Positions 6,053-36,897 of a stretch of DNA of 64,000 nucleotides are shown one piece after another (position 1 is the first letter of the stretch; each line of letters starts with the position of its first letter). The translations under genes and the position numbers were made by a program. Origin of the DNA: Escherichia coli (GTDB lineage Bacteria > Pseudomonadota > Gammaproteobacteria > Enterobacterales > Enterobacteriaceae); assembly GCA_029351405.1 (NCBI GenBank), contig GCA_029351405.1_4841.1; one strand, given 5' to 3'. Below the pieces are notes generated by a model. The model was not told where the DNA came from. It made no database searches and saw only the letters and a program-made list of their open reading frames with translations.

Positions 6053-6057
6053 TGAAC

Positions 6058-6648
6058 TTATTTCTTCAGATCAGGCCACGCACCAGAGGTCGCAGTAGAC
6101 CCAGCTGGGGGAGCAGACTCAAGATCGGGAGAACCCGACTGAGTAACAACAGTGGGATCTTTCTGTACGACCCGAACCCCAAATTGCTTGAGAGCATCCA
6201 TAGCTTGGGCTTTTCGCCTGTTGCTTTTGTAGTGGTTGTAGCCTTTGATACCGAATGATGCACTAATTGCTGTCAATAACGAATAGGTATACCATTCAGG
6301 TGCGGTATCTAGTGCCTGAAGGCCACCGATTACTGCTTTGATGAAATCCCCTTTATGATACTCACCAGGGAACAGAATCAGTTCCACAACCGGAGCAGTC
6401 ATGACGAGGATGGCGGGTATGGCCAACACGATAGTCCAGAATTCGTCTTTCCAAGACCCGCCGACTTCGGTGATCTTAGACAGCTCCCAATCTGAGGAGG
6501 ACTTGATGGCCTCCAGCTTGACGTCGTGTTTGGCCTGTACAACTTCCCGCTTATATTGGATCAAATCAGTCCCGAGGTTCCAGAGTTGCTTGAGCGCCCC
6601 TGGGATCATACCAACGAGGGGGATTGCCATAATAAACTCCTTGGTCAA
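6058..6648 (-). CDS. hypothetical membrane protein (196 aa)
   Basis: Hydrophobic segments (IPLVGMIPGAL, FWTIVLAIPAILVMTAPVV); divergent from the DNA polymerase gene. Confidence 0.5.
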   Translation of the reverse strand: MTKEFIMAIPLVGMIPGALKQLWNLGTDLIQYKREVVQAKHDVKLEAIKSSSDWELSKITEVGGSWKDEFWTIVLAIPAILVMTAPVVELILFPGEYHKGDFIKAVIGGLQALDTAPEWYTYSLLTAISASFGIKGYNHYKSNRRKAQAMDALKQFGVRVVQKDPTVVTQSGSPDLESAPPAGSTATSGAWPDLKK

Positions 6649-6709
6649 TGAATGGCTCTATGGTTAAATATGCCCACGTGCTAACGGCACGGATAACCTG
6701 GAGAATTAC

Positions 6710-9709: not shown

Positions 9710-9762
9710 TTCAATAAACCAAAGGGGGATATAATTCCCCCTGTTAACCCTTTGACAAACAG

Positions 9763-10113
9763 GTGATTGAAATGAAACTCAATAAGATTCTTCTGGTGTG
9801 CGCTCTGGCTTTCTCTACCACTGCGTGCTCCACCCTTCTGGACGTTGCGTCTACTGTAGACCTTGACGCGCCGACGTTCACCAATGAGCAGGCCGTGTCC
9901 AAGATGGAAGACACTATTAAGGCACATGCAGCACTGGACAACACTACTCCGGGTCCGCTCCAAACTGTCTGCAACTATGACGATTCCATCCAGGAAGACG
10001 AAACTTACCACTGCATCACCTACGTGAAGCAGGCCTCCGTCGTTCTGTATGCAGATTGTACCGAAGAACAGTGTGTTGCTACAGGCTACGATAAAGTTGA
10101 GGAAGACAAATGA
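9763..10113 (+). CDS. putative secreted/lipoprotein (116 aa)
   Basis: Signal-peptide-like N-terminus KILLVCALAFSTTAC with a Cys after the hydrophobic core; alternative start at 9772. Confidence 0.5.
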   Translation: MIEMKLNKILLVCALAFSTTACSTLLDVASTVDLDAPTFTNEQAVSKMEDTIKAHAALDNTTPGPLQTVCNYDDSIQEDETYHCITYVKQASVVLYADCTEEQCVATGYDKVEEDK

Positions 10114-10889
10114 ACAACCTGGTTTGTATCTATGATATGAAATCAAAGGTCGGTGGTCTGTATCGCGTCCTCGTGGATGTTGACCTGACGTTGGTCGACA
10201 GCCTCTCCCCTTGGGTGCAGTGGTTCAACGAAGAGAACATCGCCGCCGCTGCTATCGCTACGGGGGACCATAAGTCATACCAGTTCCAGCCGATTACCAA
10301 AGAGTGTTATATGTCCCATGCTGGCGACCTGGCTATTCTGATGCGTGAACGTGCGCATCCGGCGTGGCTATACCATGAAGTCCAATTGGGGATGCACAAA
10401 CAACGTGTGCCAAGCGGTAACGATCCTATGGATTGGTGGCGTCGCCCTGACTTGTACGCCAAGATGAACCCGCTCCCCGGTGCTTACGAGTTCCTGGTAA
10501 ATCTGAAGGATATCTTGCTTGAAGATTTCGACAATGTTGAATTCATCGCGGTGTCGAAGTGCGAGCCGGAACACGAGCGCAGCAAGCGTCAGTTTGTCTA
10601 TGATAAGTTCCCTGGTATCTTCAACGGGTTTGTCAGCACCGACGAAAAGCATCTGCTGGCTGGCGATGTCCTGATTGATGACAATCCGAAGTATGTTGAG
10701 CCGTGTGGTCTGAACAACATCTTTGTCATCTTTGTTCCTCAGGGCAATTATGAAAAACTGGATCTTTCGAACTCGGAAGATATGCTTTATATTAAACCAG
10801 TAGAAGGCCAGAACCACTTCGACTTCCTGAATCACAATATTATTGAAGTGGTCAATCGCCTGATTAGTCATTATCAATACGTCCGATAG
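10110..10889 (+). CDS. HAD-superfamily hydrolase, 5'(3')-deoxyribonucleotidase-like
   Basis: 259 aa; N-terminal VLVDVDLTLVD matches the HAD DxDxT phosphatase motif; ATGA overlap with the upstream stop. Confidence 0.55.
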   Translation: MNNLVCIYDMKSKVGGLYRVLVDVDLTLVDSLSPWVQWFNEENIAAAAIATGDHKSYQFQPITKECYMSHAGDLAILMRERAHPAWLYHEVQLGMHKQRVPSGNDPMDWWRRPDLYAKMNPLPGAYEFLVNLKDILLEDFDNVEFIAVSKCEPEHERSKRQFVYDKFPGIFNGFVSTDEKHLLAGDVLIDDNPKYVEPCGLNNIFVIFVPQGNYEKLDLSNSEDMLYIKPVEGQNHFDFLNHNIIEVVNRLISHYQYVR

Positions 10890-11204: not shown

Positions 11205-12121
11205 TGGCTAAAATAATTGTAGTGAAGGGAACAAGTGGCGTGGGCAAGGGTACGAGAGTGGTCCAGTTCATCGAATGGCTCCGTACGAAGCTGGAGCCTA
11301 CCGAACTGACCTACACCGTTGGTGACAAGACTCGCCCGTTTGGCCTGAAGTTCGGAGAGCTGAAGTTAATCTTCGTTGGACAGTACACCGTGTCTAACAA
11401 ATCCGGCCTGGCTTCCTGGACTTCAATGGATGCAATCCATGCTGCTACAGGCTCAGGCGATATTGCTCGTGATCTAATCAAGTGCTGGTTGGTTCAGGGA
11501 TACACTCTGGTGTGCGAGGGTGAACCCCTCATGCTGTCGGACAAATGGCGTCCTGAATGGATGTTCAAGAACTATCCGATTGAATCATTGGCGCTGCTGT
11601 ACTTTGCGTACCCCGACCGCTATCAGTACGATGCTCGTATCCGTGGTCGCTCTGGTAAAGAAGCAGGGAACTCCGGCTGGTCGCGCAACGAATCTTACTC
11701 CAAGGAGTTTGAGAAGTCGAAGGCCGAAATGCTGGCGCTGGGCTTCACTGTGGCTGTTGATGATTACAGCGGACAGGATATCCTGTATAAATCACCGAAT
11801 GCCAACACCCAGGAGTTCCTGACCAGCCAGCAGTCAGAGTTGGCGGTACTACCGTTCGACGCCCCGCTTTGGGTGGTGGGTAACGCGATTTGCCATCAGA
11901 TACGGTCCGAACTGCGTGAAGTTAACATGGACACCAAAGACTTTTACGCCTACTGTGAAACCAATCCGATGACCCGTGAGGTCGGCGGTGATGATCCTTT
12001 GGCGCACAGAGTGCCTGAGAAGCCGCAGAAGGCATCCAAAACTAAAACCAAGGCGAGCGCCCAGCCAGAAGTAACGAAGGCAGCGTCGCGCTCTCTCCTT
12101 GACCTGATGAAGAAGGGGTGA
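11204..12121 (+). CDS. P-loop kinase-like protein (candidate nucleotide or DNA-base kinase)
   Basis: 305 aa; N-terminal IVVKGTSGVGKGT glycine-rich P-loop; distinct from the dNMP kinase at 52608-53177. Confidence 0.5.
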   Translation: MAKIIVVKGTSGVGKGTRVVQFIEWLRTKLEPTELTYTVGDKTRPFGLKFGELKLIFVGQYTVSNKSGLASWTSMDAIHAATGSGDIARDLIKCWLVQGYTLVCEGEPLMLSDKWRPEWMFKNYPIESLALLYFAYPDRYQYDARIRGRSGKEAGNSGWSRNESYSKEFEKSKAEMLALGFTVAVDDYSGQDILYKSPNANTQEFLTSQQSELAVLPFDAPLWVVGNAICHQIRSELREVNMDTKDFYAYCETNPMTREVGGDDPLAHRVPEKPQKASKTKTKASAQPEVTKAASRSLLDLMKKG

Positions 12122-12321
12122 TCATGAAACGGTTGTCTAATTATCTGTTGTTCATCGGTCTGATTATGGCAGCTATTTCAATGTGCGTTGGCCTGGCGTA
12201 TCATTTCACTTCTCTGGATTTAACGACCTCAGAGAAGTTGAATGTGACTGTGATGTACTGTATTGGCGCGGTGATGTCTATCGGCGCTGCTGGTTACAAA
12301 ATATTCAAGGAACCAAAATGA
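12118..12321 (+). CDS. small membrane protein (67 aa)
   Basis: Two hydrophobic helices; ATGA overlaps at both ends. Confidence 0.4.
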   Translation: MIMKRLSNYLLFIGLIMAAISMCVGLAYHFTSLDLTTSEKLNVTVMYCIGAVMSIGAAGYKIFKEPK

Positions 12322-12677
12322 AAATTCAAATCCCTCGCGATGCTGTAGCTGTTGCGATTGACTACACCGGAAACGCCAAGCACATTACTGCCGTGCGCCT
12401 GATTCCTGAAAAGAACTGCGTCATCCCTCAGTTCCAGCTGAATGCCAATCCGTCGTCCAAAGACTTCGGCAAGTGGTTACAGGCTGCTCCGTTCCGTACC
12501 CAGACGAATGCTCAGATGTTCATCTCGGGTAAGACCCACACTGCAGCCCGTCTGTGGTTCGTGACCGCTGACCGTCGCTTTGTTGATATGTGGGAACGTC
12601 CGATGGGGTTCGTGAAGCCGGAAGATATTCAGCTGGCTCCTGAAGAGGAAGCGAAAGATGAAAATCAAGTCGGTTGA
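12318..12677 (+). CDS. hypothetical protein (119 aa)
   Basis: Start set at MKIQIP (ATG 12318) overlapping the upstream TGA; the track ORF starts earlier at 12183 inside the upstream gene. Confidence 0.45.
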   Translation: MKIQIPRDAVAVAIDYTGNAKHITAVRLIPEKNCVIPQFQLNANPSSKDFGKWLQAAPFRTQTNAQMFISGKTHTAARLWFVTADRRFVDMWERPMGFVKPEDIQLAPEEEAKDENQVG

Positions 12678-12843
12678 TTTTATCTTCATGATGCTGATGT
12701 TCGTTATCTTCACGGTATCGCTCGTCGGCGCCATGGTCACAGAAGGGGTTCCACAACGTCCCTTCCTGGTGATTTGTCCTGTATCGATCGCCACTTTCTT
12801 CTATCTGGCGTTCCGTGTTGAATTGGGGAACAAACTCGAATGA
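12658..12843 (+). CDS. small membrane protein (61 aa)
   Basis: Hydrophobic FIFMMLMFVIFTVSLVGAMV; translationally coupled to its neighbours. Confidence 0.4.
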   Translation: MKIKSVDFIFMMLMFVIFTVSLVGAMVTEGVPQRPFLVICPVSIATFFYLAFRVELGNKLE

Positions 12844-14075
12844 CACATCTATCTAAAATGCCGACGGGCTATACGCCCCCGGCTGAATGGAAGTACCCGA
12901 TTGACCTATCTGTTGACTACCGTAAACCTGAGAATCGCATGTACCTGCTCAAGGCTTGGGTGGAGGCGCTGTCCTACACAGAAGAGCACAACCAGCAGAT
13001 GCGTCTGATGGACTATGCGATTGAAGTCACTGAAGGCATCAGCCTCGAACAGAAAGTCGAGCGCAAGATCTGGATGGCATTCCTGTGGGGTTGTTGCTAT
13101 AACGCTGTCGGACCGTGGACGATCTACAGTGAGTTCCCTATGCCACCCCAGTCCAAAGAAGAGATGCAGCGCTTCTCTGATTGGTATAATCTGAACTTTG
13201 AACGCATGCGATTCGATACCGACTGTCGCTACCGCAAGTCCAAGATGATTCCGTGTGTTCAGTCCTATATTGACTGGCTGGCTGGCCGTACTCAATATGA
13301 CGCTTTCCGTGGGATGTTGGTGTGCATCGATAAGACAGAACAATTCACCCAGCTGTGGGACACGGCGATGTCCTGGAAATACTTCGGTCGCCTGAGCGCC
13401 TGGAACTTCCTGGAAGCCCTGAACATGGTCTTCGGGAACGAATACACCATTGACGTCCCTGGCTTCATGCTGCGTGATCGTGATGGAAGCGAGTCCAACC
13501 GTAATGGCGCGGCGTTCTTGTCCAACCGTGACGATTGGGTGACTAAACACGGGAAGAAAAAGATCAACGGTTGCCCTATCACGGATGAAGAGTGTGACAT
13601 CCTTGAGGCCGACCTTGAGCAGGCGTTCCAGGATTGTGTGGCTGAGTTCGGACACCTGACGTTCATCAACCGTCTGAACTTTGAAACCTCCGGTGCTTGT
13701 TGGCTGAAGAAATTCTTCCGACTGAAGAATACCCGTTATATCGGGTGGGACGCAGAGCGTACCTGGGATGAGATAGACTACATGGAACGCGTCTGGCCTG
13801 AATACTCCTGCGCAGCGCTCTGGGAAGCCCGTTCTCTCTGGCTACCAGATACCCTGTTGTGCGAAAAGGCTCCTGCAGGGCACGTTCCAGGCGTCCAGAA
13901 GTGGAAGATGCCTGTGTTCTTTGAGACTGGTGTTCCTCTGCATATCTGGCACCTGCAAAAGGGTACGCGCTGGGAACCATCCGAGGTCTGTACGAACCTG
14001 AAGATGCCTGTGCGCAAGGTTGAGGACAAGTCGAAGTCCAGCAGCGTCAACCTCATGGCACTCTTGAAACGCTGA
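12840..14075 (+). CDS. hypothetical protein (411 aa), candidate DNA-modification enzyme
   Basis: Long ORF overlapping the upstream stop; no catalytic motif recognised by eye; sits downstream of the P-loop kinase. Confidence 0.55.
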   Translation: MTHLSKMPTGYTPPAEWKYPIDLSVDYRKPENRMYLLKAWVEALSYTEEHNQQMRLMDYAIEVTEGISLEQKVERKIWMAFLWGCCYNAVGPWTIYSEFPMPPQSKEEMQRFSDWYNLNFERMRFDTDCRYRKSKMIPCVQSYIDWLAGRTQYDAFRGMLVCIDKTEQFTQLWDTAMSWKYFGRLSAWNFLEALNMVFGNEYTIDVPGFMLRDRDGSESNRNGAAFLSNRDDWVTKHGKKKINGCPITDEECDILEADLEQAFQDCVAEFGHLTFINRLNFETSGACWLKKFFRLKNTRYIGWDAERTWDEIDYMERVWPEYSCAALWEARSLWLPDTLLCEKAPAGHVPGVQKWKMPVFFETGVPLHIWHLQKGTRWEPSEVCTNLKMPVRKVEDKSKSSSVNLMALLKR

Positions 14076-17241: not shown

Positions 17242-17697
17242 ATGACTACCAAACCAACTTATGAAGAACTGGCGCAGACCGTTCTGACCTTCGACAGCAC
17301 CCTGAAGAATCTTTACAAGGTGCTAGGAAATAACCCGACTTCAGAGTCAGGAGAAACAGTTAATCTTCTGTTACTGATGAACCCTCTGTGGGATATTGAT
17401 GCCATTGTTACTGCCCTGAAAGATCCTGGGGCAAAGGAGCCGGAGCCAACCCCTGTATCCACTGGGATTCAGAATTATCTGGAGAACTTTGATGAGTACT
17501 CCTTCACCAATCTGCTCCTGCGTGATATGATCAACACAGAACGCCGTCGCCAGGGAAAGAACTACCCTGTGGTCCAGTCTGATGAAGAAATCGAGCAGAG
17601 TGTTCGAGAAGATCTGAACAGCACCTACTCGCCGATCGATCTGGCTGTGATGATTGTTCAGGCACTGTCCTACGCCGCCAAAGGAGAAACGAAATGA
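17242..17697 (+). CDS. hypothetical protein (151 aa)
   Basis: Start set at MTTKPT (ATG 17242, GGAG RBS); the track ORF start at 17161 lies inside the terminator hairpin. Confidence 0.45.
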   Translation: MTTKPTYEELAQTVLTFDSTLKNLYKVLGNNPTSESGETVNLLLLMNPLWDIDAIVTALKDPGAKEPEPTPVSTGIQNYLENFDEYSFTNLLLRDMINTERRRQGKNYPVVQSDEEIEQSVREDLNSTYSPIDLAVMIVQALSYAAKGETK

Positions 17698-17897
17698 AGC
17701 CCAAGATGTCCTCAGTAGCGCTGGCCGCAGCTTTGGCTCTATCGGAAAGTGTTGCTCTTTCATCACACCGTGGCGAGTTTTGGACAGAACGCTATACCAA
17801 CTATGAAGGTCCAGGCATGCCAGGGCATGGTCGCCCATCTGTAACCCGCAAGAAGAAGGCGAAGACCCATGGAAAGAACAAGCGCAAACGTAAGTGA
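17694..17897 (+). CDS. small protein with hydrophobic N-terminus and Lys/Arg-rich tail (67 aa)
   Basis: ATGA overlap with the upstream gene; ends KKKAKTHGKNKRKRK. Confidence 0.4.
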   Translation: MKPKMSSVALAAALALSESVALSSHRGEFWTERYTNYEGPGMPGHGRPSVTRKKKAKTHGKNKRKRK

Positions 17898-18038
17898 GGA
17901 GCGCCTGAAGGATCTTTCTGCAGGCACTCCAAAGTTGGCCAGATCATGGGTGATGTTTGATGACCGACGAGATAATCTTCCTTCGAGCAGAGGTCGCTCG
18001 ATTAAGTAAAACCGAACCCAAAAAGTAGAGGATATGTT

Positions 18039-18386
18039 ATGAGTTCTATTGAACAGCTGATCACCCCACAGTATGTGTACTCCAACATTGTTGAGCACCT
18101 GCGCTCACAGTTGAACGTGGGAACCCTGAACAGCACTGACCTGAAAGATCTACAAATCGTTAAAGTCGAAGTGGCGGCCTTTGGTTCTCGATATCACTTC
18201 AATGTGGAATACACGCGTGTAGAAGAGCAGCAGTCCTCTATCATCGCGCTGGCTACTCCAGTCAACCCACGCAAAGAGCCTGTGTCGGTCACCCGCACCA
18301 TCATCGGCTATCTGGAAGAGAAGTTGGAACCTGGTGCCCAACGCCCAACATTCGACTTCCAGGCGCGATTTGCCACCGAAGATTGA
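18039..18386 (+). CDS. hypothetical protein (115 aa)
   Basis: ORF followed by a strong terminator. Confidence 0.45.
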   Translation: MSSIEQLITPQYVYSNIVEHLRSQLNVGTLNSTDLKDLQIVKVEVAAFGSRYHFNVEYTRVEEQQSSIIALATPVNPRKEPVSVTRTIIGYLEEKLEPGAQRPTFDFQARFATED

Positions 18387-18394
18387 TCTGAACA

Positions 18395-18418
18395 AAGCCC
18401 TCAGCCGAGGGCTTTTTC
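18395..18418 (+). terminator. Rho-independent terminator
   Basis: Hairpin AGCCCTC-(AGCC)-GAGGGCT followed by TTTTT. Confidence 0.7.
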
Positions 18419-18492
18419 AATTGAAGACACCCACCGTATTATACCCACTCAACCAATATGTTCCCCTTTGACATTGATAGGATTTCTATACT

Positions 18493-21249
18493 ATGAAAAT
18501 GCGCAAGTCCGAGCACTTTATCCGCTCGTCGTCTTCCATTCAGGGACAGGCGTTCAACGTGAAGATGAACGATAAGATGTTTGAGACTCTGTTCTCATCA
18601 TTGTATCGTTACAAAGAGGCTGCAGCCCTGCGCGAAACCGTCTGTAACGCCATCGACTCCCATGGCATGCGTGATCGTATGCACCGTGTGATGGCATCCC
18701 ACTACGCGCCTCTCACTCCGCCTCCTGCCCGCCATAGCAAATACCTTGCACCGAAGGGTAAGCAGGTTGTTGTGCATCTACCTGATGACTTTGAACCATG
18801 GCTGGAAATCCGTGATTACGGTATCGGCCTGCCACTTGAGAAGATCATTGGCGAGCCTATCCCAGCGCAGGAAGATGAGGTGCTGCTGGAAGGCAACATG
18901 GTGGTCAAGGAAGATGAGATCCCTGACTCAGCTGAGGTCATCGGCGTGCCTGCGTTCTATAATGGTGGTCTAGTGTTCCGTCGCGAAGATGGTGAAATCA
19001 TTCGTACGCCTGGGTTGTATACCACTCTCTTCCACAGTACGAAGGAAGAAGATGATGATCAGATTGGGGCATTCGGTCTTGGCTCCAAATCACCATTTGC
19101 GGTATCGGATTCGTTCACAGTGGAAAGCCGCATGGACGGTAAACTCCATCGCTTCCTGATGTACCTGAATGCCAAGCGTATCCCGACTGTTGATCTGATC
19201 ACCAAAGATCTTGAAACCCGTGATCCTAAGCCGGAAGACACCGATGAGTTCAACGGCATGACGGTGAAGATCCCGGTGAAGAACGCTCGTTTCTCTGCAT
19301 TCTCCGATGAACTGGTCCGTCTTGGTCGTGTTATGCGCCCTGAACAACGTCCAATTGTTGAGAACGCTTCATACCGCTTCAGCTGGGAAGATATCAGTTA
19401 TGATTTCAAGGTCAACAACACGTACATCCAGCCGAAAGGCCAGGGGAACACCCACTACGCTGTGATGGGCGGCGTGTCATACCCGATTGACCTGGACCAG
19501 CTGGACCCGGACACTGCTTCCATCATGAGCAAGTTTCCATCGTCCTATACGTTCTTCGAACTCGGCTCGCTGAACGTACCACCGTCGCGTGAAGACCTTT
19601 CATATGACGAATTCACGCGTGAGACGCTCTCTGAGGAGTTTAAGGGCACCGCCAATGCAATCTTGACAGAAAAGATGCGTGACCTAGAGCTGGCGTGTAA
19701 GCGCGGTCCTCTTGCCCTGTATATGGAGAAGGCAAAACTGAGCGAAATGTTCGGTAGTGGATTCCGCAAGATGGTTGAAAAGGAATACCCGGCTGACAAG
19801 CGCTTCCACGATTCATATTACCGTTATCCGCTGCCTGTTGAGATTGATCGCGATTATGACCATACCGCGCCGTTCAATGAGCTGTCATCGCCGTTCTCTA
19901 TGGAGATCTTCTATGACTGGGGTGAGTCCAGTACCCTGACCATTTCAGAAATCCAGAAGTGGATTGATCGCGGTCAGCATGTTACTGTGGTGATCGAAGA
20001 TAGTGTTCGTGCTCGTAACCTGAAGATCAAGCAACTGAAAGATACAGGGACGATAGTCATCGTGGCCAAGCCGAACACATCCTATGTCACCAAGCGCAAC
20101 CAATCTAAGGACAACCCTGCGTTCAAGAATTCTCAGGCTCTCTATGATTTCTTTGAAACTTGGATTGGTAAAGAAGAAACGACGGTTGATTATCTGTGCT
20201 TCGCTGACAAGTTCGTCGATTGGCTGAGTGCGGTGCTGGAGCCTGCTGAAGTTAAGTTCATGAACGAACTGACGTATGTCACGCCCCCGGTCACCAAAGA
20301 CCCTGGCATGTTTCCGTTCACGCGCAGCAACTTCGACATATACCAGTATGAAGAACTGACGGGCGACCAGATCTCAGATATCATCAACAAGGGCGAGCGC
20401 ATCGTCTATATTGAGGTGTCTGGCCATGCGTGTATCCATCAGGTGATGGACAGAACGTTGACGACTGCGGCGGCGCGGGGTATTCGTAAATCTCTGTATG
20501 AGCACGCAGTCAGTGTCGACGATGAAGGCAAGCCAGTGTACATCAGCGACATGCTGAACGTTCACAACCGAATCTTCCTGGCTCGTCGTAAATCCGTGCC
20601 AATGATGAAGAAGTTCCCAGAGGTCTTCATACCGATCGATGAAATCCTGAAGATCATGTTGGAAAACGTGAAGCCTATGATGGAGCGCGATAGCGCCAGG
20701 CGCATACTGGAATCATACCGCCGCATGCGCCTTGGGGCGGATCGATTAAAATACGGGAGTCGTCTGGTTCACCAGGCGTTTGGTGATGTTGAAGACGATC
20801 GTTATGGCAAATTAGTCAGCCGTTACAACAAGTTAATGAAAGTCGTGGACGATATCTTGGATGAGCAGACTGTACGTCATTACCAAAGCCTGGCGAAAGC
20901 CCCGGTTTCAATCAATGACAAGCGTCGCTTTAGCCATTTCCAGGACACAATACATTCTCTTAACGTGAATTTGTACGCCAACGATCGTGACGAAAAGATC
21001 TTCCGTTCAGAACATCAGATGTTACAGATCTTTGAATGCGCTTCGGATGTGTTGCGGTCTCATGGATTTACACCGTTTGATATATCGAGGACTCCGTCAT
21101 TGAAAGCAAGGCGGGAAAACCGATTGACCATCGAGCGTCATCGTGTTGTCCGGTTCTTGAAAGAGAATTACAAACCAAGCGCCCTGAACCCGATTGAAAA
21201 TTCTTCGGATTACTTGGACGTTATTTCAAATTCCATTATCAGGGCATAA
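18493..21249 (+). CDS. rIIA: rIIA-like protein
   Basis: 918 aa; CNAIDSH and [21 protein letters not shown] parallel T4 rIIA TNMIDAH and [21 protein letters not shown]; directly upstream of the rIIB homolog. Confidence 0.85.
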   Translation: [918 protein letters not shown]

Positions 21250-31317: not shown

Positions 31318-31560
31318 ATGAACCCAGAATTTGAAAATCTGTTCGAGCGATGCTTCGAACCAGGTTCTGTGTCCGGTTACATGGACCGTCTTTGCACTGC
31401 CATTGTAATACGCCTTGCTGCCAAGGGTATCGTTGTCAACACCATTATCCGCAATGGGAACAACTTTATCATGCAGATGACTGATTATCACCGCCGCACA
31501 GGCATCATCCAGGTGTCATGTGTTGACAACAGCATTATTGAATGGAGACAGTACGCATGA
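31318..31560 (+). CDS. hypothetical protein (80 aa)
   Basis: Stop overlaps the macro-domain gene start. Confidence 0.45.
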   Translation: MNPEFENLFERCFEPGSVSGYMDRLCTAIVIRLAAKGIVVNTIIRNGNNFIMQMTDYHRRTGIIQVSCVDNSIIEWRQYA

Positions 31561-32156
31561 CCACATATGTAATCAACGGTGGTGATTTACTGAAAGCCGC
31601 CTGTAGCTTCAATCTGATCGACATCTTTGCCCACGGTGCCAACTGTTGGTCTACCATGGGCGCGGGTATTGCCCTGCACATCGGCAACAACTTCCCATCC
31701 CTACGCGAAGTCGATGCGAACGACCCTCGTGGTCCAGAGCAACGCCTGGGTGGCATGTCTTATGCATTCGACCACAGCAAAGGCGTTTGGGGCGCGAACC
31801 TCTACACTCAGTTTTATCCAGGCCCGAACGCTCGCATGCCGTCTGTCATCAGTTCTGTTCAGACCCTGTTCGAGCAGGTGCATGAAATTGTGGAAGCAAC
31901 TAAAGACGAAACTGTCTATGTCGGCCTGCCTGCTATCGGCTGTGGTATTGGTGGCCTGAACCTCTACAGTGTAGTGCGCCATATCAATCGAATCTCTGAA
32001 AGCGTGTATGAAGAGACCCGCCGTCGTGTCGTCCCAGTCTTCTATATCAGGGAAGGAGACGGATTCGATGATGATATGATGGAACTTTCTCATCTGGACA
32101 CAGAAGGTATCATGATTGTCGAAGATGAGCAAGAAATCATCGACGAGGAGGCGTAA
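31557..32156 (+). CDS. macro domain protein (ADP-ribose binding / ADP-ribosyl hydrolase-like)
   Basis: Start set at ATG 31557; VINGGDLL...FAHGANCWSTMGAGIALHIG resembles the macro-domain glycine-rich diphosphate-binding loop. Confidence 0.6.
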   Translation: MTTYVINGGDLLKAACSFNLIDIFAHGANCWSTMGAGIALHIGNNFPSLREVDANDPRGPEQRLGGMSYAFDHSKGVWGANLYTQFYPGPNARMPSVISSVQTLFEQVHEIVEATKDETVYVGLPAIGCGIGGLNLYSVVRHINRISESVYEETRRRVVPVFYIREGDGFDDDMMELSHLDTEGIMIVEDEQEIIDEEA

Positions 32157-32789
32157 ATGTACAAGTCTAATTTCCTTGCAGTTGCCGACAGCGAAACCCT
32201 GGGTCGCTGGGATGATGCAGTCATGTTGTCCTGGGCGCACACCATCGCCGACCTGACCAAGCGTTATACTCTTCAGCAGCTGGTTGAGGAGCGCACGACG
32301 TTCATTAAGCTGAATGTCAAAGAGCAACTCGAACTTGGTCGCGTGAAGGACGCTGGGACAGTTGAATGGTGGCTGGGCACGGGCAAGCGCAACCCGTGTG
32401 ATGCGGCTCGCGCCGTCAGTCTGTACCCGACTGAGCAGGACATCTCTATCTTCCAGCTGGCCGATGAAATCCGCAAGGGATGTCATCGTCTTGGGGTAGA
32501 CCCGCGCTCGGTTGACTGGTGTGACCGTAACTTGTTCGATCTACGCAAGGCTCAACACATCATTGAGGTGACGTGTAAGCAGGACTCCAACGAGCCATGG
32601 GATTACCACCACACCTTCGACATCGTGAGCTGGCTGAAGGGTGTTGGGCAACAGGATCGCTACGCTGGCATCAAGGCGTGGGAACTGGAAGGTATGGTCT
32701 ATCATGATCCTCGTTATGACGCCGCGCTTGATTGGCTTCGTATTCAGAAGACCATGGAAGATCTGATGGGACTGGAGGTTGTGGGATGA
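32157..32789 (+). CDS. dexA: DexA-like 3'-5' exonuclease (DEDD family)
   Basis: 210 aa; FLAVADSETLG parallels T4 DexA FIIDFETMG (Exo I DxE); TVEWW and a C-terminal HxxxD-like motif. Confidence 0.7.
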   Translation: MYKSNFLAVADSETLGRWDDAVMLSWAHTIADLTKRYTLQQLVEERTTFIKLNVKEQLELGRVKDAGTVEWWLGTGKRNPCDAARAVSLYPTEQDISIFQLADEIRKGCHRLGVDPRSVDWCDRNLFDLRKAQHIIEVTCKQDSNEPWDYHHTFDIVSWLKGVGQQDRYAGIKAWELEGMVYHDPRYDAALDWLRIQKTMEDLMGLEVVG

Positions 32790-33088
32790 TTGTATTCACT
32801 GTCATCGGTGTGATCGTAACAGCTGGGGTGTTCACAGCCATATTGGGCTACCTGTACTTCATGTTCCTTCATCCGTTATTTCAGGCGTTCAGTCTCACGA
32901 ATTGGTACTTGGCCTGCCTAAAGGCCGACGGCGGCGTGAACACGGCCTCTCTTCCTTACTGGCGGCTGGTGGCGCATTACTACTCGGTCGGTGGCTGGCC
33001 TGGGGAAAGGACATGGAACTCTATCGGTGAGTGGTATGGAATAGGTCGATGGCGTATATTCCCTGATGAAGATGATCAAGCCCCGTGA
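32786..33088 (+). CDS. hypothetical membrane protein (100 aa)
   Basis: Start set at ATG 32786 in an ATGA overlap with the dexA stop; hydrophobic N-terminus. Confidence 0.45.
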   Translation: MIVFTVIGVIVTAGVFTAILGYLYFMFLHPLFQAFSLTNWYLACLKADGGVNTASLPYWRLVAHYYSVGGWPGERTWNSIGEWYGIGRWRIFPDEDDQAP

Positions 33089-33100
33089 GGGGCTTTTCTA
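33079..33100 (+). terminator. Rho-independent terminator
   Basis: Hairpin AGCCCC-(GTGA)-GGGGCT followed by TTTT, overlapping the stop at 33088. Confidence 0.65.
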
Positions 33101-33151
33101 TATCCGGGATAGAGTATCATTGGTTCACCAACGAATCCTCTGGAAACTGTT

Positions 33152-33364
33152 ATGACTACAGCAAGAAGTTACAGAAAGAACTTCAACATCGAAGGGATTG
33201 AGTTCTACCACCATTACGCCCAGGACACACATGGCACTGTATGCAACACATACATGCTTGACGGTCACCCTGTAGGTTCCGATGAGTTCTATCGTGTTCT
33301 GCGCGAGTGTACAGAAGAATCCCTTCCGTACATCATCAACGCCAACGGATTGATTAAACCATGA
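33152..33364 (+). CDS. hypothetical protein (70 aa)
   Basis: Stop overlaps the QueC-like gene start. Confidence 0.45.
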   Translation: MTTARSYRKNFNIEGIEFYHHYAQDTHGTVCNTYMLDGHPVGSDEFYRVLRECTEESLPYIINANGLIKP

Positions 33365-34050
33365 TCAACGTATCAATAAACGACCGTGATTTCGTTCGCG
33401 ATGTTATGACAAACAACAAAGACCCTCTTGCGTACAACGGGGAGAAGGTTACTCTGTTCTGGTCAGGCGGTGTGGACAGCACGTACATGCTATTCTGGTT
33501 GTTGGCTCACGGGTACGAAGTTCACACGATCTACTGCGAACTGGAGAACAACTCCTTCAAGGTGAAACGTGAGAACTGGGCGCGCAAGAAGATCAGGGAA
33601 TGGGTGATCACCAATTCGCCAAGGTTGAACGCTCATTGGCATCACAGGGAAACCCCGATCAGCAAAATGAGCATCCAGTCTGGTGGGTTCCGGCCTTGTC
33701 TGGCTCAAGCCCCTGTGTGGTTAGTGAACACCCAATTCGTGGGCGGCCATTTTGATCGAGGACTGCCAAGAACTTATGTGATGGCATACGTCAACGGAGA
33801 CGACGCTCTCCACTGGATTCCAGCCTTCAACAAGATCGTGGAGGGTTATAACATGTTGGCCAAAGACGGGCATGAGATCACCGTTCTCTTCCCTCTCGCC
33901 AGCATGAAGAAGACATGGTTCTACGAAGCCCTGAAACCGATCTATGGCCTGATGACCTGGTGTGAATATCCCGTTCTGAAAAAGAACTGTGATTGCCCCG
34001 CTTGTGTCCGCCACCGTCATGAACTTTCCGTGTTTGAGGGGAAACAATGA
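33361..34050 (+). CDS. QueC-like PP-loop ATPase (7-cyano-7-deazaguanine synthase family)
   Basis: 229 aa; LFWSGGVDSTYML matches the QueC SGGxDS PP-loop; GYEVHTIYCE parallels E. coli QueC YDEVHCVTFD; C-terminal Cys cluster NCDCPAC. Confidence 0.6.
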   Translation: MINVSINDRDFVRDVMTNNKDPLAYNGEKVTLFWSGGVDSTYMLFWLLAHGYEVHTIYCELENNSFKVKRENWARKKIREWVITNSPRLNAHWHHRETPISKMSIQSGGFRPCLAQAPVWLVNTQFVGGHFDRGLPRTYVMAYVNGDDALHWIPAFNKIVEGYNMLAKDGHEITVLFPLASMKKTWFYEALKPIYGLMTWCEYPVLKKNCDCPACVRHRHELSVFEGKQ

Positions 34051-34388
34051 AACCGTCTGTTGTGGTGAACGACATCACGAGATTGATAAACCTTGTCAAA
34101 GATGTGTTTCCACAACAGGTGGATGTCGAGTACGTGGGGAAGAACGGGAAGTGTTACCAGGTTGCTCTGTTGTTGAAGCACGTGTACCCTCAAGCAGAGA
34201 TCCATTACAGTCAGACCGAAGGTCATGTGTATACTCTGATTGATGGGCATTACTACGACATCGACGGCATCCACTTCAGTGTCCCACCGGACACGTGTTT
34301 GCTCGAACACAACAGAGGCCATAAACCCCATCGCTGGCATAAAGGGTTTGTGAACGTACCGATTTTAGAATGGTTGAGGAAACCATAA
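34047..34388 (+). CDS. hypothetical protein (113 aa), His-rich
   Basis: Coupled between the QueC-like and phosphoesterase genes. Confidence 0.45.
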
Positions 34389-34948
34389 TGGCAGGAATTG
34401 TAAAGTATCTGGGCGACACCCACCTTGGGCACAAGAAGATCTTCAATCCCCGTGGGTTCGATACCCAAGAGGCACATGATGCTGCAGTTATCGACAGTAT
34501 CTTTCAGGGGTTGAAGTCCCGAGACGTCCTTGAACTGGCTGGGGACATCTGCTTCATCGGGGCTGAGGGGTTCATTCGCCTGATGCGCGAGGGTGCCAAG
34601 AGGAATATTGATGAGTTCAAGCGCCGCCCAGTTCCCGATGACTGGCGTCCGAACTTTATCATCAGGGTGGCGCAAGGCAACCATGACAGCTTCAAGATGT
34701 TGATGCAGCTGTATCAAGAGGGATGGATTAGCTCCTTTGGTGCGATGTATGAGCGTGATACTCCGGTTGGTCGTGTGTTGACCACTCACGTTCCTTATCA
34801 ATTAGACCGCTGGGCGTATAATATCCATGGTCATCTTCACGAAAATATTCGCGAAGAGCGCGAATACCTGAACTGTAGTTGGGAACAATTCAAGCGCCCT
34901 GTAACCCTGTCTGAGTTGTTATACACCAATCTGGGGATTGAAATATGA
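34388..34948 (+). CDS. calcineurin-like metallophosphoesterase
   Basis: Start at ATG 34388 (TAATG overlap); motifs GDTHLGH, AGDI, QGNHD and HGHLH match the phosphoesterase signature. Confidence 0.6.
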
Positions 34949-35262
34949 AAATTTATTTTCCTGGCCAAAAGGTGCCTTCTGAAGTGCAGAAGGTCACAAT
35001 CACAGGCTACCGGAAAGGGGATCCATATCTGCGCTTCTCCTCTCCATGTATCGTGAAGCAAACTAAAACGGGTTATTATATCAGGCCGATTGTGTTGATG
35101 GGCTGTGTAATGACGTTCAGAGCTTCCTGTGAACACGTTCTTATACAAGGAAGTCCAAACATCGAAGGTGGAGAAACCCACATGAACTGCAAGCCGATTA
35201 TCCCGACATGGTTGATTATTGGTGTGCTTTCCGTTTTAGCTCTGAAAGGAGTATTGTCATGA
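34945..35262 (+). CDS. hypothetical protein (105 aa)
   Basis: ATGA overlap upstream; hydrophobic C-terminus. Confidence 0.4.
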
Positions 35263-35588
35263 AAAAGCCACGCATCACAGGACATCAACTCTGCGTCCTT
35301 TTAGGAATGTTGAACTTTGAGAAAGGTCATTGCCGTTATGGTGAATGGTACTTTCATCCCAAATCCTGGACCAATGACAAGGGCAACACCGTCTGGACGT
35401 TCCGGGTATGCCCGAACGCTGGTGGTTTCACCTCCGTCAAAGGCAACCCCCGCACAGGGGCTTCCCTGCTCGCCAAGGGGTTGATCGAACCAGCTGGCTC
35501 AATGGTTCATGACGGTTCTTACGTGAACTGGCCGAACACTGAGGTGACGTTCTATCGCCTGACCGAACTCGGTAAATCTTATCTCTGA
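35259..35588 (+). CDS. hypothetical protein (109 aa)
   Basis: Start set at MKKPRITGH (ATG 35259) in an ATGA overlap. Confidence 0.45.
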   Translation: MKKPRITGHQLCVLLGMLNFEKGHCRYGEWYFHPKSWTNDKGNTVWTFRVCPNAGGFTSVKGNPRTGASLLAKGLIEPAGSMVHDGSYVNWPNTEVTFYRLTELGKSYL

Positions 35589-35658
35589 ATAAAGATTCAG
35601 CGGTTATTGAAGAAGGGGGAGTATATACTTCCCCTTAGTTTATTAAGAGGAACCGGAA

Positions 35659-35973
35659 ATGACCCCATTAAAAGAAATGTATGAGCGCCTGTCTGAACTA
35701 CAGGCGAAGGAAAAGCGCTTCTCAGAAGAAGAGACAGAGCTGTCCGAGCTGAACAACCTGATCGCCACTCGTGAGAAGTACCTGCAGCGCTACATTAATC
35801 ACCCGCCGCGCATGGTAGACCGCGTCAGCACTATCATGGACCTGGATGAAGTTACTCCTGGCAAAGAAATCATTGTCAGGGAAGTCCACCAGATGGTCGC
35901 CATGGGTCAGATCTTTGGTCGTGCAGACCAAGACGACATGATCTTCCTCCTTGAAAAGAAACTGGTGATGTGA
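35659..35973 (+). CDS. hypothetical protein (104 aa)
   Basis: GAGGAA RBS; stop overlaps the cd start. Confidence 0.45.
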   Translation: MTPLKEMYERLSELQAKEKRFSEEETELSELNNLIATREKYLQRYINHPPRMVDRVSTIMDLDEVTPGKEIIVREVHQMVAMGQIFGRADQDDMIFLLEKKLVM

Positions 35974-36479
35974 TGGCTATCAAACCCCGTATGTTGTTTG
36001 CGCATATGCGCTCGGCTCATGCATACGCTCTGTCCAGCTATGCACAGCGCCTGAAGGTCGGCTGTGTTATCGTTGACCCGCGTGTTGACCAGCCCCTGTC
36101 TATCGGTTGGAACGGGACTGCTCCTGGCGCTCCTAATGTCTGTGAGAAGGAAGTAGACGGTCAACTGGTATCGGTGGGTGTTATCCACGCCGAGGAGAAT
36201 GCTCTGAGCAAACTCCCCCAGCACACTGAAGACTGTTGTGGCCTGGTGATGTTTGTCACTCATAGCCCATGCCCAGAGTGCACCCGTCGTATTATCGACA
36301 GTGGCAAGATCGCTAAAGTGTTCTATGACCGACCATATCGTATCATAGACGGTATTATTGAAATGCTGGCTGCTGGAATTGAAGTATATCGCATGGTCGA
36401 TCAGTTTGTTGTAGTCCAGCATTCTGTGAAGAACGGCGAACTGGTATCCACCCCTGTTTTAGTGAACCCTGACAAATAA
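35970..36479 (+). CDS. cd: deoxycytidylate (dCMP) deaminase
   Basis: 169 aa; zinc-binding motifs HAEENA and PCPEC of the cytidine/deoxycytidylate deaminase family. Confidence 0.8.
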   Translation: MMAIKPRMLFAHMRSAHAYALSSYAQRLKVGCVIVDPRVDQPLSIGWNGTAPGAPNVCEKEVDGQLVSVGVIHAEENALSKLPQHTEDCCGLVMFVTHSPCPECTRRIIDSGKIAKVFYDRPYRIIDGIIEMLAAGIEVYRMVDQFVVVQHSVKNGELVSTPVLVNPDK

Positions 36480-36489
36480 GGAATTTATC

Positions 36490-36897
36490 ATGCGTTATGT
36501 AGATCGTATGCTCGGCAAAGACGAGCACGTTATTGCCTTCACCCGCCCGACTTGGTGGAGCGGTTTTTGGATTTACGTTCTGGTTATTTTAACGTTTATC
36601 CCAACATTTGGATTCAGCTTGTTATTTCTGATACCAACAATTTTAAATGTATTGACAACTGAATTCGCTGTGACTAACAAGCGCGTCATCGTCAAACGTG
36701 GTTTCATCCGTCGTGATGCTGATGAGTTGCGCATTGGTAAGGTGGAGACAGTGAAGGTTGATCAGTCCATCACAGGCCGCATCTTGGGCTTCTCAACAAT
36801 CAGCGTGATCGGTACGGGTGGCACCCGCCTGCTGGCCAAGGGTTGTGCTGGTGGTAATGCTTTCCGTCAGAAGATCTACGATCACCTAGAAGACTGA
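36490..36897 (+). CDS. membrane protein with bacterial PH-like domain (bPH_2/DUF304-like)
   Basis: 135 aa; two N-terminal TM helices followed by TNKRVIVKRGFIRR...VETVKVDQSITGRILGF. Confidence 0.5.
   Translation: MRYVDRMLGKDEHVIAFTRPTWWSGFWIYVLVILTFIPTFGFSLLFLIPTILNVLTTEFAVTNKRVIVKRGFIRRDADELRIGKVETVKVDQSITGRILGFSTISVIGTGGTRLLAKGCAGGNAFRQKIYDHLED

What the first reader, a model, noticed from the sequence alone, without database searches (positions are those of the whole stretch)
33152..34948. QueC-like PP-loop ATPase with a metallophosphoesterase in a small operon
The 229-aa protein carries the QueC SGGxDS PP-loop, QueC-like size and a C-terminal Cys cluster. It is coupled to a 70-aa and a 113-aa unknown protein and a calcineurin-like phosphoesterase. 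No FolE, QueD, QueE or DpdA/TGT homolog is visible in this window. It may belong to a 7-deazaguanine DNA-modification pathway whose other parts lie elsewhere, or be a QueC-like enzyme with a different role such as nucleobase conjugation or counter-defence.
Basis: partly seen in the sequence, partly recalled or inferred. Interest (0 to 1): 0.6.

Follow-up and report, generated by a model that had tools for sequence, protein, structure and literature searches.

The report
Orphan phage QueC-like ATP pyrophosphatase
This gene encodes a divergent, phage-specific relative of the queuosine enzyme QueC that keeps the ATP-using core and zinc site but not the residues QueC needs, is not part of a deazaguanine DNA-modification pathway, is not tied to the neighbouring phosphatase, and has an unknown substrate.

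Summary
Four overlapping + strand ORFs sit at 33152-34948: a 70-aa ORF, a 229-aa PP-loop protein with SGGVDS and a C-terminal Cys4 cluster, a 113-aa protein and a metallophosphoesterase. The window is an Ackermannviridae (Aglimvirinae-like) phage.

- It lacks the QueC motifs YxQxHxxE, VPxRN and YPDC. It scores 18.7 bits against a 150.3-bit cut-off for the QueC equivalog model.
- tblastn with phage 9g proteins finds no DpdA, FolE, QueD or QueE in the window or in the closest complete genome.
- The four genes are not a module. Close relatives lack exactly the 70-aa plus QueC-like pair and keep the other two genes; other genera show other combinations.
- The protein belongs to a large, almost purely phage and metagenomic subfamily (1158 representative clusters) with its own motifs and no conserved partner.
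- Hutinet et al. 2019 already flagged the ECML-4 ortholog as a "singleton QueC-like" protein.

The most likely mechanism is ATP-dependent adenylation of a carboxyl or carbonyl group on a non-CDG, or differently bound, heterocycle. The substrate is unknown. Interest is modest.

The parts
33078..33095 (+). Terminator-like hairpin (AAGCCCCGTGAGGGGCTT followed by a T-rich tail) upstream of the unit. It is conserved in relatives with and without the QueC-like pair and marks the left edge of the indel region.
33152..33364 (+). 70-aa ORF (phrog_16682). The AF2 model is a small beta4-alpha2 protein with no structural relatives. Its stop overlaps the QueC-like start (ATGA). It is gained or lost together with the QueC-like gene in Aglimvirinae and is adjacent to it in Taipeivirus. 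It is absent from Kuttervirus and lies 2.7 kb away in phiMAM1.
33361..34050 (+). 229-aa QueC-superfamily PP-loop ATP pyrophosphatase of a phage-specific subfamily. Family motifs: SGGxDS; Y..I.NN..K..RE; L.Q.P.W; GYV(M/N)(N/G)DDA; FPL.K..K; TWCE...C.C..C.R.
33463..33480 (+). PP-loop SGGVDS (residues 35-40), the pyrophosphate-binding motif. It is invariant in the family.
33961..34005 (+). QueC-type zinc-binding Cys4 cluster, C201-x8-C210-x-C212-x2-C215, preceded by TW and followed by E ('TWCE'). The wider family has the canonical C-x8-C-x2-C-x2-C spacing.
34047..34388 (+). 113-aa Phage_YunG-like protein (PF24591, E=3e-43; phrog_4814), function unknown. It is retained in relatives that lack the QueC-like gene.
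34388..34948 (+). Calcineurin-like metallophosphoesterase (phrog_547), annotated as Ser/Thr phosphatase in relatives and similar to the phage T5 phosphatase by annotation. All five metal-binding motifs are present. An alternative upstream ATG lies at 34370.
34945..35262 (+). 105-aa DUF7618 protein (PF24594), in the same co-directional overlapping gene chain.
35259..35588 (+). About 110-aa phrog_4677 protein, the last gene before the next terminator-like hairpin. The start is inferred from the PHROG match and the annotation of relatives.
35613..35636 (+). Terminator-like hairpin closing the six-gene unit.

Best explanation
The 229-aa gene encodes a stand-alone enzyme of a phage-specific branch of the QueC (PF06508) superfamily.

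Shown:
- It has the QueC/Cap9 fold.
- It keeps an intact PP-loop, the Glu and Lys aligned with E. coli QueC E42 and K165, and the C-terminal Cys4 zinc site.
- It lacks the QueC residues that define conversion of CDG to preQ0.
- It has no deazaguanine-pathway partners.
- It sits as a dispensable accessory gene in the plastic DexA-to-dCMP-deaminase region of Ackermannviridae genomes.
- It is co-transcribed with small genes and a phosphoesterase, but these are evolutionarily independent of it.

Inferred:
- Like all N-type ATP pyrophosphatases, it binds ATP-Mg and adenylates a carboxylate or carbonyl oxygen of its substrate, releasing PPi. An amine or ammonia then displaces AMP to give an amide or amidine-type product.
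- In the profile alignment to Cap9, family-invariant D147 falls on Cap9 D117, the nucleobase-binding Asp. MAFFT and hhalign to QueC instead place D147 on QueC D127. If the Cap9 alignment is right, the substrate is probably a small polar N-heterocycle, possibly purine- or deazapurine-like, supplied by the host.
- It is recognised differently from CDG in QueC: the stacking Tyr and the Arg are replaced, and family-specific NN, Q and DD residues appear.
- The biological role is an auxiliary or host-takeover function. It is not DNA deazaguanylation.
For: - Identity of the phage and annotation of the region.
- Full-length homology to QueC: family profile against B. subtilis QueC 3bl5, residues 1-206, E=7e-11; Cap9 9nto E=1e-8; other PP-loop enzymes match only the P-loop at E>=1e-3. 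hhalign to E. coli QueC gives 94.7% probability over 183 columns.
- Conserved catalytic core and zinc Cys.
- Canonical motifs absent, compared with the signature defined in PMC13329287.
- TIGR00364 score 18.7 bits against a cut-off of 150.3.
- No DpdA, FolE, QueD or QueE in the window or in the fGh-Ecl02 genome, nor near 59 of 61 relatives.
- Large phage and metagenome family: 1158 representative clusters at E<=1e-3 and 482 at E<=1e-10; 639 proteins at E<=1e-8, carrying only automatic names.
- Distribution in cultured phages: 199 records, mostly Ackermannviridae, plus a few jumbo phages.
- Neighbours of distant members are replication and nucleotide-metabolism genes, with no conserved partner.
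- Independence from the phosphoesterase, the YunG-like gene and the 70-aa ORF.
- Prior literature flag of the ECML-4 ortholog as a likely non-QueC singleton: PMC6884629.
Against: - No substrate or product is identified, so the chemistry beyond adenylation is inference from the superfamily.
- D147 aligns with the deazaguanine-binding Asp of Cap9 in one alignment but with a different QueC Asp in MAFFT and hhalign. The pocket assignment is therefore uncertain, and a 7-deazaguanine substrate supplied by the host QueE is not excluded.
- QatC also lacks the canonical QueC motifs, yet it is proposed to use CDG (PMC13329287). Motif loss alone does not prove a non-deazaguanine substrate.
- The BLAST-level search for DpdA could miss a very divergent transglycosylase.
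- The model has low-confidence stretches (residues 112-114, 129-132, 204-209).
Confidence: 0.7

Rival explanations
1. A Cap9/QatC-like nucleobase-protein ligase, or a counter-defence enzyme. The protein would activate host CDG or a related base and attach it to a protein N-terminus. Alternatively it would drain or divert CDG so that host QatABCD or type IV CBASS cannot arm themselves.
For: - The family shares the 'CE' residue pair at the first zinc Cys with Cap9 rather than the 'CY' of QueC (PMC13329287).
- Invariant D147 aligns with Cap9 D117, which hydrogen-bonds the deazaguanine (10.1101/2025.04.06.647259).
- The segment between motifs 2 and 3 is short, as in Cap9.
- The gene is dispensable and sits in a plastic accessory region next to a macro-domain gene.
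- Qat systems occur in E. coli, one of the hosts of these phages (PMC13329287).
Against: - No ORF of 60 aa or more in the window or in the fGh-Ecl02 genome starts with the MG(G/T/S)S acceptor motif. The adjacent 70-aa ORF starts MTTARSY.
- There is no CD-NTase, Cap10/TGT, QatA, QatB or QatD partner. PADLOC gives only a P-loop-level QueC hit and no QatC hit.
- The Cap9 motifs Y/FxQ, RN and YxDC are not kept.
- There is no conserved partner gene across 60 loci.
- No paper found in the searches made reports an anti-Qat or anti-CBASS-IV function for a phage QueC-like protein.
Confidence: 0.12
2. A nucleic-acid base-modifying PP-loop enzyme, such as a tRNA thiolase, a lysidine-type enzyme, or a late step in DNA hypermodification, acting on phage tRNAs or on phage DNA.
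For: - The phage carries tRNAs including a CAT-anticodon tRNA annotated as Ile.
- By the annotation of its closest relative, the phage lineage carries thymidine-hypermodification genes.
- Distant family members sit in replication modules.
Against: - Sequence similarity to those families is limited to the P-loop.
- The protein has no THUMP, PUA or other RNA-binding domain, and its length is about 200 aa.
- Its Cys4 site is the QueC structural zinc type, not the three-Cys Fe-S site of thiolases.
- RPN242 lacks the gene yet is cited in the fGh-Ecl02 notes as carrying aGPT-Pplase clade 2; Ag3 also lacks the gene. The gene is therefore not needed for that pathway.
Confidence: 0.08
3. One reading: a bona fide QueC supplying preQ0 for 7-deazaguanine modification of phage DNA, or boosting Q modification of the phage tRNA-Asn and tRNA-Tyr, with the other pathway genes elsewhere or supplied by the host.
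For: - Pfam QueC is the best-scoring Pfam family and passes its gathering cut-off.
- The size and zinc motif are QueC-like.
- Many database records name the protein 'QueC-like queuosine biosynthesis'.
- The phage encodes tRNA-Asn(GTT) and tRNA-Tyr(GTA), which are queuosine-family tRNAs.
Against: - Y35, Q37, R99, the YPDC motif and Y189 of E. coli QueC are not conserved. Alanine substitutions of Y35, R99, Y131 and Y189 abolish QueC function (PMC13329287).
- The QueC equivalog model scores 18.7 bits against a cut-off of 150.3.
- There is no DpdA/TGT, FolE, QueD or QueE in the window or in the closest complete genome.
- Hutinet 2019 treated the ortholog as a singleton of another subfamily.
- The host already has QueC.
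Confidence: 0.04
4. A four-gene functional module in which the phosphoesterase and the two small proteins work with the PP-loop enzyme, for example by hydrolysing AMP or PPi products or by processing the product.
For: The start and stop codons overlap and the genes are co-directional between two terminator-like hairpins. The QueC-like gene and the phosphoesterase are also neighbours in Taipeivirus.
Against: The presence/absence matrix shows every gene occurring without the others:
- LHE287, RPN242 and Ag3 have the YunG-like gene and the phosphoesterase but no QueC-like gene.
- Det7 (Kuttervirus) has QueC-like and YunG-like genes, with only a 25-codon remnant of the phosphoesterase.
- The phiEa2809 locus has only the QueC-like gene of the four.
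- In phiMAM1 the order is rearranged.
Distant family members never have these neighbours.
Confidence: 0.04

Closest known systems
[quoted passage not shown] 2026)
   Same: The two share the fold and full-length homology. Both have the SGGxDS PP-loop, the conserved Glu (E42 = E71), the Lys (K165 = K184), the Pro of the 'PL..K' motif, and a C-terminal Cys4 zinc site with near-identical spacing. Both are about 220 aa.
   Different: The phage protein lacks YxQxHxxE (only the Glu remains, and Y-x-Q becomes I/L-x-N plus a three-residue insert). It also lacks VPxRN and YPDC, and Y189 becomes Glu. It fails the equivalog score. It has no queD, queE or folE linkage. The family has its own invariant NN, Q, DDA and TWCE motifs.
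Cap9 of type IV CBASS (PDB 9NTO), a QueC-family enzyme that ligates 7-carboxy-7-deazaguanine to the N-terminal Gly of a CD-NTase
   Different: There is no CD-NTase or Cap10 neighbour and no acceptor protein with an MGGS N-terminus. The Cap9 residues Y115 and R86 and its Y/FxQ motif are not kept. The protein is phage-encoded rather than part of a bacterial defence operon.
QatC of QatABCD
   Same: QatC is a QueC-superfamily enzyme whose canonical substrate motifs have been remodelled while the PP-loop and a zinc-site variant are kept (PMC13329287). It is paired with a small protein of unknown fold, QatB, which loosely recalls the 70-aa ORF seen here.
   Different: [quoted passage not shown] It has QatA and QatD neighbours. 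QatB carries an essential MGTS N-terminus (PMC13279940). None of this is found here, and the 70-aa ORF is not a conserved partner.
'Singleton QueC-like' proteins of phages noted by Hutinet et al. 2019 (Escherichia phage ECML-4 YP_009101458; Mycobacterium phage Muddy)
   Same: The ECML-4 protein is a direct ortholog (61% identity, H71). The authors' assessment, a member of another N-type ATP pyrophosphatase subfamily, agrees with the analysis here.
   Different: That paper set these proteins aside without analysis. This work shows that the subfamily is large, has its own motif signature, is closest to QueC and Cap9, and has no fixed partner genes.

Membership tests
PF06508 QueC superfamily (N-type ATP pyrophosphatase, QueC clade) | Pfam model above the gathering score, and homology over the whole domain rather than only the P-loop | tested here: met
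Canonical QueC (preQ0 synthase) | SGGxDS PP-loop | tested here: met
   SGGVDS at residues 35-40, invariant in 20 orthologs and 80 family members.
Canonical QueC (preQ0 synthase) | C(x)8CxxCxxC zinc motif | tested here: met
   The spacing in this protein is C201-x8-C210-x-C212-x2-C215, one residue shorter. The wider family has the canonical CGxCxxC spacing.
Canonical QueC (preQ0 synthase) | YxQxHxxE motif (Y35 essential) | tested here: not met
   This region aligns as Y..(I/L).NN..K..RE. Only the Glu is kept, and Y35, Q37 and H39 are replaced. The motif definition is from PMC13329287.
Canonical QueC (preQ0 synthase) | VPxRN motif (R99 essential) | tested here: not met
   The region reads L.Q.P.W in the family. 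There is no conserved Arg-Asn. The Ackermannviridae branch has an invariant R111 nearby, but it does not align with R99.
Canonical QueC (preQ0 synthase) | YPDC motif (aromatic Y131 essential) and Y189 next to the first zinc Cys | tested here: not met
   The region reads GYV(M/N)(N/G)DDA(I/L)(S/H)(Y/W), with no YPDC. Y189 is replaced by Glu ('TWCE').
Canonical QueC (preQ0 synthase) | NCBIfam equivalog TIGR00364 trusted score | tested here: not met
   18.7 bits against a cut-off of 150.3; only residues 33-57 align.
Canonical QueC (preQ0 synthase) | Genomic linkage with queD, queE or folE | tested here: not met
   tblastn with phage 9g proteins finds no such genes in the window or in the complete fGh-Ecl02 genome. 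None lies within about 5 kb in 59 of 61 related loci.
Canonical QueC (preQ0 synthase) | Catalysis of CDG to ADG to preQ0 | not testable with these tools
   This needs an enzyme assay or complementation of a queC deletion.
Phage 7-deazaguanine DNA-modification system (DpdA-based) | A DpdA/TGT-family transglycosylase in the genome | tested here: not met
   Phage 9g DpdA gives tblastn hits of E>=1.6 only, in the window and in the 153-kb fGh-Ecl02 genome. No such annotation appears among the record's 196 features. Caveat: the search has BLAST-level sensitivity.
Phage 7-deazaguanine DNA-modification system (DpdA-based) | 7-deazaguanine bases in virion DNA | not testable with these tools
   This needs LC-MS/MS of digested virion DNA.
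Cap9 (type IV CBASS) | Operon with a CD-NTase and Cap10 (TGT-like), and an acceptor N-terminus MGGS | tested here: not met
   PADLOC gives only a weak QueC P-loop hit for residues 28-81. No MG(G/T/S)S-initiated ORF of 60 aa or more exists in the window or the relative's genome. The neighbours are unrelated.
Cap9 (type IV CBASS) | Retained QueC core motifs Y/FxQ(x)5E, RN and YxDC | tested here: not met
   Only the Glu, the Asp aligned to D117 and the 'CE' pair are shared.
QatC (QatABCD) | About 400 aa with N- and C-terminal extensions, QatA/QatB/QatD neighbours, and the QatC motif set | tested here: not met
   The protein is 229 aa. There is no PADLOC QatC hit and no such neighbours.
Calcineurin-like metallophosphoesterase (the 186/192-aa neighbour) | Five metal-binding motifs: DxH, GD, GNH(D/E), H, GHxH | tested here: met
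   Read directly from the translation: [33 protein letters not shown] 547 'phosphoesterase' matches at E=1e-43. Pfam Metallophos did not hit at E<=0.1, and the protein has no PDB sequence relative.

The most novel reading that the evidence does not exclude
The phage-specific QueC-like subfamily could be a counter-defence or host-takeover enzyme acting on the host's 7-deazaguanine intermediate pool, or on a related nucleobase. For example, it might adenylate CDG and divert it to a dead-end amide so that QatC or Cap9 cannot arm QatABCD or type IV CBASS. Alternatively it might attach a nucleobase to a host protein. Either would be the first viral use of the QueC scaffold outside preQ0 synthesis.
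Probability: 0.1. Interest if true: 0.8.

Novelty: new variant of a known kind. Interest (0 to 1): 0.35.

Why it matters
- QueC-family enzymes have recently turned out to do more than make preQ0. Cap9 and QatC modify proteins with a nucleobase in anti-phage defence.
- This analysis shows that phages carry their own large QueC-like branch, with at least 1158 clusters at 50% identity. It keeps the ATP-activating core and zinc site but has a remodelled substrate pocket. The 2026 survey of the superfamily does not describe a phage-specific cluster.
- The practical consequence is annotation. The label 'QueC-like queuosine biosynthesis', attached to this gene in many of the roughly 200 phage records that carry it, should not be read as evidence of deazaguanine-modified DNA in Ackermannviridae.
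- The scientific consequence is a defined, dispensable, single-gene target with natural plus and minus variants, for example fGh-Ecl02, Gloob and ChubbyThor against LHE287, RPN242 and Ag3. These variants make the function testable.

Tried and rejected
- Single-sequence PDB search of the 229-aa protein found only P-loop-level matches at E>=0.3, so it was uninformative. The family profile was needed.
- The word-indexed homolog search found only 19 close orthologs. The exhaustive profile search was needed to see the family.
Bacterial genomes were therefore not scanned.
- Neighbour clustering over 62 loci looked for a conserved partner and found none. It found only replication genes: an AAA+ ATPase with an intein, PolB, UvsX, a clamp-loader subunit, dCMP deaminase and 2OG oxygenases.
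- C-terminal extensions of longer family members gave no Pfam domain beyond one weak HTH match.
- The YunG-like protein and the phosphoesterase have no PDB sequence relatives. A literature search for 'YunG' returned only surnames.
- The AFDB50 fold library was unavailable.
- The jumbo-phage contexts of Noxifer and RsoM3USA are all hypothetical proteins.
- A link to thymidine hypermodification was considered and rejected. RPN242 lacks the gene yet is cited as carrying aGPT-Pplase clade 2, and Ag3 also lacks the gene.
- A link to the phage tRNAs was considered: a CAT-anticodon tRNA and the Q-family Asn and Tyr tRNAs. There is no supporting evidence.
Full report
**What is there.**
The window comes from an Ackermannviridae phage. 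A 5-kb slice around the finding is 97.6% identical to Enterobacter phage fGh-Ecl02. It is 82-100% covered at about 87-97% identity in other close relatives, including Shigella phages Gloob and ChubbyThor and Escherichia phages LHE287, RPN242 and ZQ1. Shigella phage Ag3 is covered to 71%.

- 33152-33364: 70 aa.
- 33361-34050: 229 aa.
- 34047-34388: 113 aa.
- 34370 or 34388 to 34948: phosphoesterase.

Their start and stop codons overlap, as ATGA or TAATG. Two more small genes follow: DUF7618 at 34945-35262 and a phrog_4677 protein ending at 35588. Together the six genes form a co-directional chain between terminator-like hairpins at 33078-33095 and 35613-35636. The physical description, a small operon, is therefore correct.

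**What the 229-aa protein is.**
Library scans place it in PHROG 1550 'QueC-like' (E=1.4e-73) and above the Pfam QueC gathering score (27.9 against 22 bits). The Pfam alignment covers only the PP-loop region, residues 32-75. The curated QueC equivalog model TIGR00364 scores 18.7 bits against a cut-off of 150.3. A single-sequence PDB search gives only P-loop-level matches.

Twenty orthologs (56-91% identity) show these invariant residues: SGGxDS, N63, N64, K67, R70, E71, R111, Q116, YVNGDDA (143-149), KK (183-184), and TWCE followed by C201-x8-C210-x-C212-x2-C215.

An exhaustive profile search found 1158 representative clusters at E<=1e-3, of which 482 reach E<=1e-10. Nearly all are full-length matches in proteins of about 200 aa. 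An 80-member alignment defines the family signature:
- WSGGLDSTYL
- Y..I.NN..K..RE
- L.Q.P.W
- GYVMNDDAIS
- FPL.K..K
- TWCE-x7-CGxCxPCxR

The family profile aligns end to end with B. subtilis QueC (E=7e-11) and Cap9 (E=1e-8). All other PP-loop enzymes match only the P-loop at E>=1e-3. hhalign to E. coli QueC gives 94.7% probability over 183 columns.

It does not apply. This is a QueC-clade protein.

**Why it is not QueC in function.**
Libby et al. 2026 (PMC13329287) define the canonical QueC signature as SGGxDS, YxQxHxxE, VPxRN, YPDC, K165 and C(x)8CxxCxxC. They show that the Y35A, R99A, Y131A and Y189A substitutions abolish function.

I aligned the family with E. coli QueC and the QueC domain of phage 9g.
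- Kept: the PP-loop, E42 (= E71), P159, K165 (= K184) and the four Cys.
- Lost: Y35-x-Q37 becomes (I/L)-x-N with a three-residue insert. VPxRN has no counterpart. YPDC is absent. Y189 is Glu.

The 'CE' pair at the first zinc Cys is the Cap9 state. In the profile alignment to Cap9, family-invariant D147 falls on Cap9 D117, the residue that hydrogen-bonds the deazaguanine. The stacking residues Y115 and R86 are not kept. MAFFT and hhalign to QueC place D147 on a different Asp, D127, so this point is uncertain.

**No deazaguanine pathway.**
I took DpdA, FolE, QueD, Gat-QueC and QueE from phage 9g. I searched them by tblastn against the window and against the complete 153,282-bp genome of fGh-Ecl02, which is collinear with the window at 95-98% identity. 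Only noise was found, E>=0.15.
- The genome annotation has no such gene.
- Among 61 related loci, only two weak and distant members (L052, L054) have a QueD next door.
- For canonical QueC, 33% of neighbourhoods contain queD (PMC13329287).
- Hutinet et al. [quoted passage not shown]

**The four genes are not a module.**
Relatives that are 96-97% identical over this region (LHE287, RPN242), and Ag3 (92%), lack exactly the 70-aa plus QueC-like pair. There the DNA runs from the conserved upstream hairpin straight into the YunG-like gene.

A tblastn matrix across genera gives:

| Phage | 70-aa ORF | QueC-like | YunG-like | Phosphoesterase |
|---|---|---|---|---|
| window / fGh-Ecl02 | + | + | + | + |
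| LHE287 | - | - | + | + |
| Det7 (Kuttervirus) | - | + | + | 25-codon remnant only |
| UPM2146 (Taipeivirus) | + | + | - | + |
| phiMAM1 | + (2.7 kb upstream) | + | - | + (upstream of QueC-like) |
| phiEa2809 | - | + | - | - |

- The ORF upstream of the Kuttervirus QueC-like gene is unrelated to the 70-aa ORF.
- The region between DexA and dCMP deaminase is thus a plastic accessory region.
- The QueC-like gene is its most widely kept, but still dispensable, element. It occurs in 199 phage records, nearly all Ackermannviridae, plus some jumbo phages.
- The region is also mosaic. Against Det7, DexA and the YunG-like protein are 95-96% identical, but the QueC-like protein is only 64% identical.

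**Context of distant members.**
Lookups and a viral-contig scan followed by all-against-all clustering of neighbours found no conserved partner. The neighbours are replication and nucleotide-metabolism genes:
- PolB.
- An AAA+ ATPase, sometimes split by an intein.
- UvsX.
- A clamp-loader subunit.
- dCMP deaminase, in 9 loci.
- 2OG-Fe(II) oxygenases.

The family is almost wholly metagenomic and carries only automatic names.

**The Cap9/QatC analogy.**
Cap9 and QatC act on a partner protein with an MG(G/T)S N-terminus.
- No ORF of 60 aa or more in the window or in the fGh-Ecl02 genome starts that way.
- The 70-aa ORF starts MTTARSY.
- PADLOC gives no QatC hit.

A protein-ligase or counter-defence role is therefore not supported. 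It is also not excluded, because a host protein could be the target.

**Mechanism.**
Shown:
- The QueC/Cap9 fold.
- An intact ATP-pyrophosphatase core and a structural zinc site.
- A remodelled substrate pocket.
- Stand-alone, dispensable, phage-specific distribution.

Inferred:
- ATP-dependent adenylation of a carboxyl or carbonyl oxygen, followed by attack of ammonia or an amine.
- A small polar heterocyclic substrate other than CDG, or CDG bound in a different way.
- An auxiliary or host-takeover role.

I put 0.7 on this framing as a whole. The rivals are:
- Cap9-like ligase or counter-defence enzyme: 0.12.
- Nucleic-acid modifier: 0.08.
- Genuine QueC or DNA deazaguanylation: 0.04.
- Four-gene functional module: 0.04.

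**The other genes.**
- The 113-aa protein is Pfam Phage_YunG-like (E=3e-43), function unknown.
- The phosphoesterase has all five calcineurin-type motifs and matches PHROG 547. The Ag3 annotation notes similarity to the T5 Ser/Thr phosphatase. Neither it nor the YunG-like protein has a solved relative by sequence.

**Novelty and verdict.**
- The gene is already annotated in about 200 phage genomes, and the literature flagged it in 2019. The observation itself is therefore not new.
- What this analysis adds is that the gene represents a large, coherent, phage-specific QueC-like subfamily. It has its own motif signature, no deazaguanine partners and no fixed neighbours. The 2026 superfamily survey does not discuss a phage-specific cluster.
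- I rate it a new variant of a known kind.
- Interest is 0.35. It is worthwhile as a defined biochemical target, given the recent Cap9 and QatC findings. A specialist would not find it surprising, and the DNA-modification idea that drove the original score is not supported.

Noticed in passing
window 1257-2230: A cluster of four tRNA genes: CAT anticodon (called Met by ARAGORN, annotated tRNA-Ile in fGh-Ecl02), Asn-GTT, Tyr-GTA and Ser-GCT. Asn and Tyr are queuosine-family tRNAs. A CAT tRNA-Ile would need lysidine, which is made by a PP-loop enzyme. No link to the QueC-like gene was found.
   Followed up: partly
window 31542-32156: A Tk.4-like protein (phrog_335; weak Pfam Macro-domain hit, E=0.007) lies immediately upstream of DexA, in the same plastic accessory region. 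It could be an ADP-ribose-related counter-defence gene.
   Followed up: no
L003 (Salmonella phage Det7) 4501-5018, compared with window 34388-34948: Kuttervirus keeps only the last 25 codons of the phosphoesterase (96% identity), following an unrelated 149-aa ORF. This looks like a gene-replacement scar.
   Followed up: partly
window 32157-36897 compared with L003: Strong mosaicism. DexA, the YunG-like protein and the membrane-flanked protein are 93-96% identical to Det7 at the amino-acid level. The QueC-like protein, dCMP deaminase and Tk.4 are only 62-72% identical. This suggests allele exchange within the accessory region.
   Followed up: partly
window about 12840-14075 and about 3316-4509 (mapped from fGh-Ecl02 7171-8406 and 17651-18844): The notes in the relative's annotation identify an alpha-glutamyl/putrescinyl thymine pyrophosphorylase clade 2 and a PLP-dependent enzyme. 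These are thymidine-hypermodification genes, so the DNA is probably hypermodified at T, not G. This was not verified independently here.
   Followed up: no
L031-L035 (IMG/VR contigs) 5540-7573: In several metagenomic phages the QueC-like gene is followed directly by an AAA+ ATPase interrupted by a Hint/LAGLIDADG intein.
   Followed up: partly
L052 and L054, 4995-5995: Two distant QueC-like genes (26% identity to the family core) have a QueD homolog immediately downstream. These are probably genuine deazaguanine loci and mark the boundary of the orphan subfamily.
   Followed up: no
window 11209-12846 compared with fGh-Ecl02 8400-10557: Collinearity with the closest genome breaks here. fGh-Ecl02 carries a putative homing endonuclease in this interval, so an endonuclease presence/absence polymorphism is likely.
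   Followed up: no
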